From the NCBI RefSeq assembly GCF_988242995.1, contig NZ_OZ547043.1: DNA of 64,000 bases, one strand, 5' to 3'. The position numbers were made by a program. Of this stretch, positions 30,001-33,000 are shown piece after piece; positions within the stretch are counted from its first letter, which is position 1, and every line of letters starts with the position of its first letter.

Positions 30001-33000
30001 TGGAAGTAGTCATTGGGGACCTTGTTGGTTTTGTGTTTAACAATATTTATACAAGCACAGCTTTACAGGGGAGACAATGGAAAATTTTTCAGCAAGGGAA
30101 AATTGAGGGGTTGATCACGTTTTGTACTGTACTGCAGGTAACAAAAAACCCCGCCGGAGCGAGGTTTCGTCAGCCGCCCGCGGCTGGTAACCGCAAAGCA
30201 CACTGTATTATGTCAACACAGAAAGTATACGTGTTCCGCGCAGAACGCGCAATTTCGGCACGAATTTTGACGTAATTAGTGCATAGTTGAGTATCGATCA
30301 CAGTTTGCGTTTTGTCCAAACATTACTGTTTATTCATACAGTAAACTTCTATAATATCACTGTACGCAATGTGTTATGCGGGGGCCGCATCGTTACCCGG
30401 CGCACTAAGTCCTGGCTGAAACGGGTGGTGCCGTCAGCGCCTTAACCCCGCGTGAGCACACTGTGTTATGTCAACGAGCACAACGTTTCTCCTTGAGATA
30501 CCGCGTGCACAACAGCTGGCAACAGGCAGCGGAAAGGTACGTCAGCTGGCAGTGCTCCTGAACCACAGGAGACGCGTATGAGCCTGGTGGATATCGCCAT
30601 TCTTATCCTCAAACTCATTGTTGCAGCACTGCAACTGCTTGATGCTGTTCTGAAATACCTGAAGTAATTCAGATTCAAGTCGCACCAAAGGGGAGCGGGT
30701 AACCGCTCCCCTTTCATATTTAGCGTGCGGGTTGGTGTCGGATGCGATGCTGATGCATCTTATCCGCCCTACCATCCCTCCCGGCAACATTTATTGCCGC
30801 TTTTGTTTACATATTCTGCCGCTAAACAATTCCCCATTCCTGGCGTATATCTGGCTAACATTTATCAATGTGATAGATTCCTCTCCCGCATTTATGGGAA
30901 TGCGTAGTGACTTATTCTAATTATTTTTATAAAAGCATCCGTGATAATGAAAAGGCATAGAAACGTCAATTTGTTATTGATGTTGGTATTACTCGTGGCC
31001 GTCGGTCAGATGGCGCAAACCATTTATATTCCAGCTATTGCCGATATGGCGCGCGATCTCAACGTCCGTGAAGGGGCGGTGCAGAGCGTAATGGGCGCTT
31101 ATCTGCTGACTTACGGTGTCTCACAGCTGTTTTATGGCCCGATTTCCGACCGTGTGGGTCGCCGACCGGTGATCCTCGTCGGAATGTCCATTTTTATGCT
31201 GGCAACGCTGGTCGCGGTCACGACCTCCAGTTTGACAGTATTGATTGCCGCCAGCGCGATGCAGGGGATGGGCACCGGCGTTGGCGGCGTAATGGCGCGT
31301 ACTTTGCCGCGTGATTTATATGAACGGACACAATTGCGCCATGCTAATAGCCTGTTAAACATGGGAATTCTTGTCAGTCCGTTGCTCGCACCGCTAATCG
31401 GCGGTCTGCTGGATACGATGTGGAACTGGCGCGCCTGTTATCTCTTTTTGTTGGTACTTTGTGCCGGTGTGACCTTCAGTATGGCCCGCTGGATGCCGGA
31501 AACGCGTCCGGTCGACGCACCGCGCACGCGCCTGCTTACCAGTTATAAAACGCTTTTCGGTAACAGCGGTTTTAACTGTTATTTGCTGATGCTGATTGGC
31601 GGTCTGGCCGGGATTGCCGCCTTTGAAGCCTGCTCCGGCGTGCTGATGGGCGCGGTGTTAGGGCTGAGCAGTATGACGGTCAGTATTTTGTTTATTCTGC
31701 CGATTCCGGCGGCATTTTTTGGGGCATGGTTTGCCGGACGTCCCAATAAACGCTTCTCAACGTTGATGTGGCAGTCGGTTATCTGCTGCCTGCTGGCTGG
31801 CTTGCTGATGTGGATCCCCGACTGGTTTGGCGTGATGAATGTCTGGACGCTGCTCGTTCCCGCCGCGCTATTCTTTTTCGGTGCCGGGATGCTGTTTCCG
31901 CTGGCGACCAGCGGCGCGATGGAGCCGTTCCCTTTCCTGGCGGGCACGGCTGGCGCGCTGGTCGGCGGTCTACAAAACATTGGTTCCGGCGTGCTGGCGT
32001 CGCTCTCTGCGATGTTGCCGCAAACCGGTCAGGGCAGCCTGGGGTTGTTGATGACCTTAATGGGATTGTTGATCGTGCTGTGCTGGCTACCGCTGGCGAC
32101 GCGGATGTCGCATCAGGGGCAGCCCGTTTAAGCTCACGTCACCGCAGCATCGTCATCAGCTCCATGGGAGAACGATGCTGCTTTATCAGATCACGCATCA
32201 CCCGCATATGCGGCGCGGAGCAAGAATAAAACGCCTGATAGCCCGCACAAAGCACGTTGTCTGGCGTCTCCTCCCGAGCGTGCGGGCACAGCCGATGCCA
32301 GTCGCACGCCTGGCAGCCACGGCGCGGTTGCGGGTTTTCGCTGCCACACCATTTTTGTAGGGTGGAGTCAAAAAGCTCAATCGAGATACGACTGATATCT
32401 GCCCGTACCCAACACTCGAACAGGGCAATTAAAAATTTCCCCCACAGCTCTGCTGTCACCGAAGCGGCCGTCAGATCGCCCCGGTCATCAAATTCAAGAT
32501 GGGGAATAAGCTGTACGGAGCGGATGCCCCGCTGTTTGAAATTGTGATAAAAATCGGCAGGTTGCAGAGCATCCTTATACTCTACAACCAGTTTATGCCT
32601 GTCCTCTTCAGCATCAATGACCTGACTTCCTGTCATGCGACTCTCTCAATAAATACGATAAGTTGATGTATATGCGTTACAGCAAACAGTATTGCGAGAG
32701 ATAACACCGCGAGGGAGATCAAAAATTTGTCACGGACTACGTGAAATTGGGAAAAATCGCTATTCGTGACATCCATTAAATTGCGATTACGGGTGTAGTG
32801 CCAGAGGATCAGCGCCACGATGGCGAGGATGCCAATCGAAATCCAGAATAACATGCCCGCCTGGTGCCAGTTGTGTTTGATAGCCAACGCCATCAACGCG
32901 CCGTAGCCCAGCATGGTACGAAACCACGCCAGTGATGTACGCTCCGGCTGCAGTCCTGGGTCGGCAATGCGTCTGGCTTTGCGGCTATCCGGCATACAAC

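What the first reader, a model, noticed from the sequence alone, without database searches (positions are those of the whole stretch)
30142..30667. IstR-tisB antisense pairing visible as a direct repeat; TisB differs at residue 2 from the K-12 sequence as recalled
Seen in sequence: a 22-nt direct repeat (30197-30218 and 30455-30476, 21/22 identical) on the plus strand. Because istR is transcribed from the opposite strand, a direct genomic repeat corresponds to sRNA-mRNA complementarity, here about 100 nt upstream of the tisB start, consistent with the known standby-site mechanism. A consensus LexA box sits at 30324-30343. TisB reads MSLV..., whereas I recall MNLV... for K-12; the one mismatch in the repeat could affect pairing strength.
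Basis: partly seen in the sequence, partly recalled or inferred. Interest (0 to 1): 0.35.

Follow-up and report, generated by a model that had tools for sequence, protein, structure and literature searches.

The report
Ordinary E. coli istR–tisB toxin-antitoxin locus
This is the well-studied E. coli tisB/istR-1 toxin–antitoxin locus, intact and carrying the common (not the K-12) version of the toxin, so it is ordinary and already explained.

Summary
The finding is real and correctly interpreted, and all of it is already known. Window 30143-30722 is the canonical E. coli SOS-induced type I toxin-antitoxin locus istR/tisAB, in its usual place between ivbL and emrD. Rfam istR scores 147.5 bits on the minus strand. 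TisB passes both NCBIfam equivalog models and Pfam PF13939. Every published promoter hexamer and the RBS is identical to K-12.

The direct repeat is not chance (0 of 1000 shuffles). In this window it is 20/21 identical, or 20/22, not 21/22, which is the K-12 count. Both differences are A versus G, so they become G·U wobbles in the RNA duplex. The internal one is shared by K-12 and all Escherichia, and the computed duplex energy equals K-12's (-37.0 kcal/mol). Orthologues in Citrobacter, Leclercia and Salmonella keep the pairing, with two compensatory changes.

TisB Ser2 against K-12 Asn2 is confirmed. Ser2 is the majority allele (3288 of 4358 genomes), is ancestral (all 22 orthologues), and was published and tested in 2024.

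The only unusual feature is a private T→C at position 12 of the LexA box, in the variable spacer. This lineage is about 1% diverged from every complete genome, so such a change is expected.

The parts
30143..30217 (-). IstR-1 antitoxin sRNA. I use 75 nt; the K-12 RefSeq annotation is 73 nt, which maps to 30143-30215.
   Evidence: Rfam RF01400 covers 30143-30272 at 147.5 bits against a gathering score of 45. K-12 ncRNA annotation was transferred through a gap-free alignment. The 5' end at 30217 is inferred from the -10 hexamer spacing and from my recollection of a 75-nt IstR-1.
30143..30282 (-). IstR-2, the longer SOS-induced transcript that shares the IstR-1 3' end
   Evidence: K-12 annotation of IstR-2 (140 nt) mapped through alignment A1. 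Its promoter hexamers were found.
30143..30170 (-). IstR intrinsic terminator (GC-rich hairpin plus a run of six U)
   Evidence: Terminator scan, terminal hairpin in the Rfam structure line, and identity to K-12.
30196..30217 (-). IstR-1 5' tail that base-pairs with the tisAB leader (copy 1 of the direct repeat)
   Evidence: the repeat finder family D2. A 22-bp duplex at -37.0 kcal/mol. Cross-species pair counts.
30224..30252 (-). istR-1 constitutive promoter (-10 TATACT at 30224-30229, -35 TTGCGC at 30247-30252)
   Evidence: Hexamers identical to K-12 and to those listed in Table 1 of PMC11264685.
30290..30318 (-). istR-2 promoter (-10 GATACT at 30290-30295, -35 TGGACA at 30313-30318)
   Evidence: Promoter scan hit, identity to K-12, and Table 1 of PMC11264685.
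30324..30343 (.). LexA operator TACTGTTTATTCATACAGTA, shared by the divergent tisAB and istR-2 promoters. It carries a private T->C at 30335 (box position 12).
   Evidence: Unique in the 64 kb. A CTG-N10-CAG box is conserved in 21 of 21 orthologous loci analysed. The C allele is absent from complete E. coli genomes and from metagenome contigs.
30350..30355 (+). tisAB promoter -10 hexamer TATAAT. The transcription start is inferred at about 30360-30363.
   Evidence: Identical to K-12 and listed in PMC11264685 Table 1. With this start, +106 falls at about 30465-30468, inside the duplex, which agrees with the published RNase III product.
30454..30475 (+). IstR-1 target and ribosome standby site in the tisAB 5' UTR (copy 2 of the direct repeat)
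   Evidence: The standby function is taken from PMC6690012.
30468..30581 (+). tisA ORF (37 aa), reported as not translated
   Evidence: ORF list. No family match. PMC11264685 says there is no evidence of translation.
30567..30572 (+). tisB Shine-Dalgarno sequence AGGAGA, predicted to be sequestered in structure
   Evidence: Identical to K-12. About 80% paired in all modelled isoforms.
30578..30667 (+). tisB CDS, a 29-aa membrane toxin carrying the Ser2 allele
   Evidence: NCBIfam NF011340 at 69.9 bits (cut-off 53), TIGR04459 at 61.5 bits (cut-off 38) and Pfam PF13939 at 37.6 bits (cut-off 25). Annotated tisB in RefSeq relatives.
30687..30722 (+). tisB intrinsic terminator (12-bp perfect stem, 4-nt loop, T-rich tail)
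   Evidence: Inverted repeat I1 and sequence comparison with K-12.

Best explanation
The region is an intact copy of the chromosomal SOS-inducible type I toxin-antitoxin system tisAB/istR of Escherichia coli. LexA bound at 30324-30343 represses the divergent tisAB and istR-2 promoters. IstR-1 is made constitutively from its own promoter. After DNA damage the tisAB mRNA is transcribed and processed to its +42 form, which exposes a single-stranded standby site (30454-30475) about 100 nt upstream of the structured tisB RBS. 30S subunits load there and slide to the RBS, producing the 29-aa membrane-depolarising toxin TisB. The 5' tail of IstR-1 pairs with that same site over 22 bp, including two G·U wobbles. 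This blocks standby binding and triggers RNase III cleavage to the inert +106 mRNA. What is shown here is sequence identity, family membership, the pairing, its conservation and covariation, and the allele frequencies. The expression pattern, processing, standby function and toxicity are taken from published K-12 work, not shown for this strain. The TisB Ser2 allele is the common, ancestral form.
For: Rfam istR scores 147.5 bits over the full model on the minus strand. The synteny ilvB-ivbL-istR-tisB-ysdE-emrD holds, with 97.9% identity to K-12 and 99.8% to strain MEI003. TisB exceeds the curated cut-offs of NF011340, TIGR04459 and PF13939. All published -35, -10 and RBS hexamers are identical to K-12. 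The 22-bp duplex is -37.0 kcal/mol in both the window and K-12. The repeat is non-random, 0 of 1000 shuffles. Across 21 orthologous loci plus the window and K-12 (12 distinct haplotypes), 92.4% of cells pair in register against 20-48% when slid, and two pairs change on both sides. istR lies divergent from tisB in 8 of 8 loci from other genera. The mechanism is taken from PMC6690012 and PMC4147584. The Ser2 allele is in 3288 of 4358 E. coli genomes and 22 of 22 orthologues, and is published in PMC11264685.
Against: There are no expression data for this strain. In-silico folding reproduces the published structural switch only weakly: the standby site is 0.31 unpaired in +1 and 0.47 in +42. The LexA operator carries a base seen in no other E. 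coli genome searched, so quantitative regulation could differ slightly. The exact IstR-1 5' end is uncertain by 2 nt (73 nt in RefSeq against 75 nt as I recall it), which changes the duplex length between 20 and 22 bp.
Confidence: 0.97

Rival explanations
1. The locus is canonical, but the private T->C at LexA-box position 12 measurably weakens LexA binding to what is normally the tightest SOS operator. That would lower the DNA-damage threshold for TisB and IstR-2 induction in this lineage.
For: No exact match among the 3822 complete E. coli genomes that matched the 61-nt query, with every best hit one mismatch away, and none in metagenome contigs. The tisB box is reported to have the lowest heterology index of E. 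coli SOS genes (PMC9040746). [quoted passage not shown]
Against: The change is in the spacer. The TACTGT and ACAGTA arms are intact. Spacer positions 7-12 vary among orthologues, and Citrobacter sp. wls619 naturally has C at the same position. From memory only, the recA operator also has C there. The window is at most 98.9% identical to any complete genome over 25 kb, so private neutral SNPs are expected at roughly 1 per 90 bp.
Confidence: 0.1
2. The direct repeat is a chance match, or a relic of a local duplication, with no role in RNA-RNA pairing.
For: No tool result supports this. The only point in its favour is general: short two-copy repeats are often chance matches.
Against: 0 of 1000 shuffles reach 21 nt. 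There is no significant similarity beyond the core, which argues against a duplication relic (118 of 500 shuffles score as high). The repeat is conserved in four genera with two compensatory changes. Pairing, RNase III cleavage and standby blocking have been shown experimentally for the identical K-12 sequence.
Confidence: 0.01
3. The Ser2 TisB and the extra A->G at 30476 mark a functionally diverged or decaying copy of the system in this strain.
For: There are 13 differences from K-12 within the 621-base query. Ser2 TisB was reported to be more toxic than Asn2 at low induction (PMC11264685).
Against: Ser2 is the majority and ancestral allele. G30476 occurs in 757 of 4357 genomes, is synonymous in tisA, lies outside the IstR-1 duplex, and would still form a G·U pair with IstR-2. 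The two IstR stem changes turn U-A pairs into U·G pairs and cost only 1.3 kcal/mol. All ORFs, promoters and terminators are intact.
Confidence: 0.02

Closest known systems
tisAB/istR-1 (istR-2) type I toxin-antitoxin locus of E. coli K-12 MG1655 (b4618, b4616)
   Same: Same chromosomal position, gene order and orientation. All promoter hexamers, the RBS, the standby and IstR-1 pairing core and the IstR terminator are identical. The tisB terminator stem is also identical, though its loop and tail each differ by one base. The internal G·U wobble is the same, and so is the duplex energy.
   Different: There are 13 substitutions within the 621-base query. They are TisB N2S (30582), LexA-box position 12 T->C (30335), A->G just 3' of the pairing core (30476), two U-A to U·G changes in an IstR stem (30174, 30179), and eight others outside defined elements or in the tisB terminator loop and tail.
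Consensus 'TisB N2S' tis/istR allele described by PMC11264685 (mSystems 2024)
   Same: The TisB protein MSLVDIAILILKLIVAALQLLDAVLKYLK is identical. It is the dominant variant (85% in that study; 3288 of 4358, or 75%, exact 61-nt matches here, which is a lower bound).
   Different: The LexA box differs from the MG1655 box, which 93.5% of loci carry in that study. This particular C variant was not found in any complete genome.
Other divergently encoded E. coli type I systems whose antitoxins target the 5' UTR (dinQ/agrB, shoB/ohsC, zor/orz)
   Same: The architecture is the same: a small hydrophobic toxin with a divergent sRNA complementary to the long 5' UTR rather than to the RBS (PMC4147584). 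dinQ is also LexA-regulated (PMC3567139).
   Different: The toxin and sRNA families are different. This locus matches only the TisB and istR models.

Membership tests
istR sRNA (Rfam RF01400) | Covariance-model score at or above the curated gathering score over the full model | tested here: met
   147.5 bits against a gathering score of 45, model positions 1-130 of 130, minus strand 30143-30272.
istR sRNA (Rfam RF01400) | Own sigma-70 promoter for IstR-1, and a LexA-controlled promoter for IstR-2, upstream on the same strand | tested here: met
   TTGCGC/TATACT and TGGACA/GATACT are at the K-12 positions and identical. Promoter activity was not tested.
istR sRNA (Rfam RF01400) | A minus-strand transcript is actually produced, constitutively for IstR-1 | not testable with these tools
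   Needs RNA-seq or a northern blot of this strain.
TisB toxin (NCBIfam NF011340 / TIGR04459; Pfam PF13939) | Score above the curated equivalog or gathering cut-off, and a 29-aa hydrophobic peptide | tested here: met
   69.9 bits (cut-off 53), 61.5 bits (cut-off 38) and 37.6 bits (cut-off 25); the ORF is 29 aa.
tisAB/istR type I TA system | Divergent toxin and antitoxin genes, with the antitoxin 5' tail complementary (about 21 nt) to the toxin 5' UTR about 100 nt upstream of the RBS | tested here: met
   22-bp duplex (20 Watson-Crick pairs plus 2 G·U) at -37.0 kcal/mol. The target ends 102 nt before the AUG. The 21-nt figure is from PMC4147584.
tisAB/istR type I TA system | Pairing maintained in evolution (conservation or compensatory change) | tested here: met
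   92.4% of cells pair in register against 20-48% when slid. Two pairs have two-sided changes, and 3 of 500 shuffles reach the observed number of cells with a change on both sides. This rests on few independent events, so the support is moderate on its own.
tisAB/istR type I TA system | LexA box (CTG-N10-CAG with TACTGT/ACAGTA arms) overlapping the tisAB promoter | tested here: met
   30324-30343, ending 6 nt upstream of the -10 hexamer. It is unique in the 64 kb, and a CTG-N10-CAG box is conserved in all orthologues. One spacer base differs from K-12. LexA binding itself was not tested.
tisAB/istR type I TA system | Conserved chromosomal context (ilvBN-ivbL | istR | tisAB | ysdE-emrD) | tested here: met
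   Annotated neighbours in K-12 and MEI003 align to the window.
tisAB/istR type I TA system | Structural switch: the standby site is closed in the +1 mRNA and open in +42, and the RBS is sequestered | tested here: inconclusive
   Partition-function folding gives the RBS about 80% paired in all isoforms. The standby site is 0.31 unpaired in +1 and 0.47 in +42 (K-12: 0.39 and 0.50). The direction is right but the effect is small, and the transcription start is inferred.
tisAB/istR type I TA system | TisB toxicity, and its repression by IstR-1 with RNase III cleavage | not testable with these tools
   Shown for K-12, and for the N2S protein, in the literature. Not shown for this strain.

The most novel reading that the evidence does not exclude
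The private T->C at position 12 of the tisAB/istR-2 LexA operator, reportedly the highest-affinity LexA site in E. coli, slightly loosens repression in this otherwise unsampled E. coli lineage. This would shift the damage threshold or the cell-to-cell heterogeneity of TisB-dependent persister formation.
Probability: 0.08. Interest if true: 0.3.

Novelty: already known. Interest (0 to 1): 0.07.

Why it matters
It matters little beyond correct annotation. The locus is the textbook example of ribosome-standby control and of SOS-linked persister formation, and this copy is intact. The check has three practical uses. It shows that K-12's Asn2 TisB is the derived minority allele, so K-12 should not be treated as the reference state. 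It shows that the 'mismatch' in the repeat is a fixed G·U wobble across Escherichia. And it flags one private operator SNP that would be cheap to test if anyone works with this strain.

Tried and rejected
(1) I looked for extended istR/leader complementarity beyond 21 nt. RNAduplex gave a 70-nt 'interaction' at -78 kcal/mol, but it ignores intramolecular structure, and a gapped alignment of the flanks is not better than shuffles (118 of 500). Rejected.

(2) I tested a third partial repeat copy at 30367-30378 (family D1). It is conserved in most genera but does not co-vary with the standby site, and it lies in the 5' segment removed by +42 processing. There is no evidence that it takes part in pairing.

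I used a degenerate DNA pattern instead.

(4) I tried to obtain a LexA position-weight matrix or heterology index from the literature. The papers I could reach gave index values but no site sequences. I therefore judged the SNP only by orthologue variation.

(5) My first shuffle routine returned one anomalous '21'. I replaced it with a verified implementation.

(6) My first K-12 comparison read the wrong FASTA record. I corrected this.

Full report
OBSERVATION. The repeat finder reports a two-copy direct repeat, 30197-30217 and 30455-30475, 21 nt at 95% identity. The 21/22 figure is true of K-12, because the window carries G at 30476 where K-12 has A. The repeat is far beyond chance. In 1000 verified dinucleotide-preserving shuffles of 29900-30900, the longest direct repeat with at most 1 mismatch averaged 11-12 nt, reached a maximum of 17, and never reached 21. 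A stray value came from an unverified routine and I disregard it. The LexA box is exactly at 30324-30343 and is the only match to TACTGT-N8-ACAGTA in the 64 kb, with 0.04 expected. The 29-codon ORF at 30578-30667 translates to MSLVDIAILILKLIVAALQLLDAVLKYLK. K-12 MG1655 tisB translates to MNLV.... The difference is one base, AAC to AGC, at 30582.

WHAT IT IS. Rfam's istR model (RF01400) matches the minus strand at 30143-30272 over its full length, at 147.5 bits against a gathering score of 45. The ORF exceeds the curated cut-offs of both NCBIfam TisB equivalogs and of Pfam PF13939. The 621-base stretch 30100-30720 matches 4358 of 5426 complete E. coli genomes, always on the chromosome and always under a tisB annotation. 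It is 97.9% identical to K-12-type strains and 99.8% identical to strain MEI003. The neighbours in K-12 and MEI003 are ilvB, ivbL, istR, tisB, ysdE and emrD. Every regulatory hexamer tabulated for the locus in PMC11264685 is present at the K-12 position and identical in sequence: istR-1 -35 TTGCGC and -10 TATACT, istR-2 -35 TGGACA and -10 GATACT, tisAB -10 TATAAT, and RBS AGGAGA. The IstR terminator is identical to K-12. The tisB terminator keeps its stem but differs by one base in the loop and one in the tail. The untranslated tisA ORF (37 aa, 30468-30581) is also intact.

THE PAIRING. istR and tisAB are divergent, so a direct repeat on the plus strand does correspond to antisense complementarity between the two RNAs. 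The IstR-1 5' tail (reverse complement of 30196-30217) pairs with the leader at 30454-30475 over 22 bp, at -37.0 kcal/mol. The internal difference in the repeat (A in istR, G in the leader) puts an IstR U opposite an mRNA G, which is a G·U wobble and not a mismatch. It is present in K-12 too, and the K-12 duplex has the same computed energy. The window-specific G at 30476 lies one base outside IstR-1 if the sRNA starts at 30217. It would again be a G·U pair for the longer IstR-2, and it is synonymous in tisA. It occurs in 757 of 4357 genomes. The two substitutions in the IstR body (30174, 30179) convert U-A pairs to U·G pairs and cost 1.3 kcal/mol of predicted stability. The idea that the mismatch weakens pairing in this strain is therefore not supported. 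One caveat applies: RefSeq annotates K-12 IstR-1 as 73 nt, whereas I recall 75 nt. That 2-nt uncertainty makes the duplex 20-22 bp, and the review PMC4147584 quotes 21 nt.

CROSS-SPECIES TEST. TisB is too short for the protein tools. I therefore scanned species-representative genomes with a degenerate back-translation of the TisB core, an anchor independent of the RNA pairing site. This gave 25 loci. One is a chance hit in a MAG, and one is a 243-bp enterobacterial-like contig filed under Bacillus hominis. The other 23 are real tisB loci in Citrobacter, Leclercia, Salmonella enterica subsp. diarizonae and several Escherichia species; one of these is an E. coli relative and 22 are orthologues counted for TisB. 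Of the 23, 21 had enough upstream sequence to analyse. All 21 carry the direct repeat (21-25 nt) and a LexA box 219-256 nt upstream of the AUG. In 8 of 8 loci tested, a full-length istR (105-145 bits) lies divergent from tisB. I scored the pairing as a pseudo-hairpin across 12 distinct haplotypes. 92.4% of cells pair in register, against 20-48% when the register is slid. Two pairs change on both sides: A-U to G-C in Leclercia and two Citrobacter, and U-A to C-G in Citrobacter Res13. Pairing stops after 22 bp. The internal G·U is specific to Escherichia, and other genera have G-C there. These are few independent events, but they agree with the experimental record.

MECHANISM (taken from the literature, not shown here). 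LexA represses tisAB. The primary +1 mRNA is inert. Removal of 41 nt gives the +42 mRNA, whose single-stranded standby site about 100 nt upstream of the structured RBS loads 30S subunits through ribosomal protein S1. IstR-1 pairs across that site, blocks standby binding and directs RNase III cleavage to the inert +106 mRNA (PMC6690012; PMC4147584). If the transcription start is placed 5-8 nt after the TATAAT hexamer (about 30360-30363), then +106 falls at about 30465-30468. That is inside the duplex, which is a consistency check. Partition-function folding gives an RBS about 80% paired in all isoforms and a standby site that opens from 0.31 to 0.47 unpaired between +1 and +42. The direction is right, but the effect is too weak to count as evidence.

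TisB RESIDUE 2. The Ser2 version is an exact 61-nt match in 3288 of 4358 locus-bearing genomes. All 22 orthologues from other species and genera have Ser2. Ser is therefore ancestral and K-12's Asn is derived. [quoted passage not shown] It reports Ser2 in 85% of loci, finds TisB-N2S more toxic at low induction, and finds no change in ciprofloxacin persistence.

THE ONE UNUSUAL BASE. The window's LexA box has C at 30335 (box position 12), where K-12 and even MEI003 have T. None of the 3822 complete E. coli genomes that matched the 61-nt query around it matches exactly, and all the best hits are one mismatch away. The 32-nt variant string is also absent from the metagenome collection. The tisB operator is reported to have the lowest heterology index of E. 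coli SOS genes (PMC9040746), so any change to it is worth noting. Several points argue against a large effect. The arms TACTGT and ACAGTA are intact. Spacer positions 7-12 vary among orthologues, and Citrobacter sp. wls619 has C at the same position. No complete genome is more than 98.9% identical to the window over 25 kb, so this is an under-sampled lineage in which private SNPs are expected about every 90 bp. I could not compute a heterology index, because the accessible papers give index values but not the site matrix.

VERDICT. This is a correctly recognised and fully known system, intact in this strain and carrying the common TisB allele. Its count (21/22) and its speculation about weakened pairing are corrected, and its residue-2 observation is real but already published. 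Interest is low.

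Noticed in passing
window 30335 (LexA box position 12): A T->C change inside the tisAB/istR-2 LexA operator. It is found in none of the 3822 complete E. coli genomes that matched the 61-nt query and in no metagenome contig. The same base occurs naturally in Citrobacter sp. wls619.
   Followed up: partly
window 18001-43000: No complete E. coli genome is more than 98.9% identical to this 25-kb stretch. The strain therefore belongs to a lineage not represented among 5426 complete genomes. 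The istR-tisB locus itself (99.8% to MEI003) is better conserved than its surroundings.
   Followed up: no
window 30100-30720 against E. coli genomes: 5422 of 5426 genomes carry the flanking region, but only 4358 carry tis/istR. About 20% of complete E. coli genomes therefore lack the locus, and a few (H29, H30) have it interrupted. PMC11264685 discusses copy-number variation.
   Followed up: no
window about 30479-30512; loci L003, L010, L016, L027 against L008, L022: A 34-nt segment immediately downstream of the standby site is present in Escherichia, Salmonella and three Citrobacter, and absent in other Citrobacter and in Leclercia. The standby-site-to-AUG distance is therefore about 101 nt or about 67 nt. 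This is natural variation in standby distance.
   Followed up: partly
window 30367-30378: A third partial copy of the repeat core (CAATGTGTTATG) lies near the 5' end of the tisAB transcript, inside a small CGCA...TGCG hairpin. It is conserved in most genera but does not co-vary with the standby site.
   Followed up: yes
L005, L015, L027 (Leclercia) and L010 (Citrobacter Cu233), 191-194 nt upstream of the tisB ATG: A second CTG-N10-CAG LexA-like box overlaps the tisAB -10/+1 region in these species (e.g. TACTGGGTGTGTTCACAGGG). It is absent from Escherichia.
   Followed up: no
L018 (NZ_BOQD01000672.1, 243 bp): A 243-bp contig in a 'Bacillus hominis' assembly matches the TisB core pattern. It is most likely enterobacterial contamination of that assembly.
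   Followed up: no
window 60126-60206 (+), 44405-44477 (-), 54607-54649 (+): Other Rfam gathering-level hits in the window: AsdA (antisense RNA of dnaA mRNA, 101.9 bits), the ROSE_2 thermoregulator (100.4 bits) and the ES036/CssrF sRNA (50.9 bits). There are no tRNA genes.
   Followed up: no
window 29793-30275 (+): A 160-aa GTG-started ORF runs across ivbL and istR on the opposite strand. It is almost certainly spurious, because it overlaps two characterised genes.
   Followed up: no
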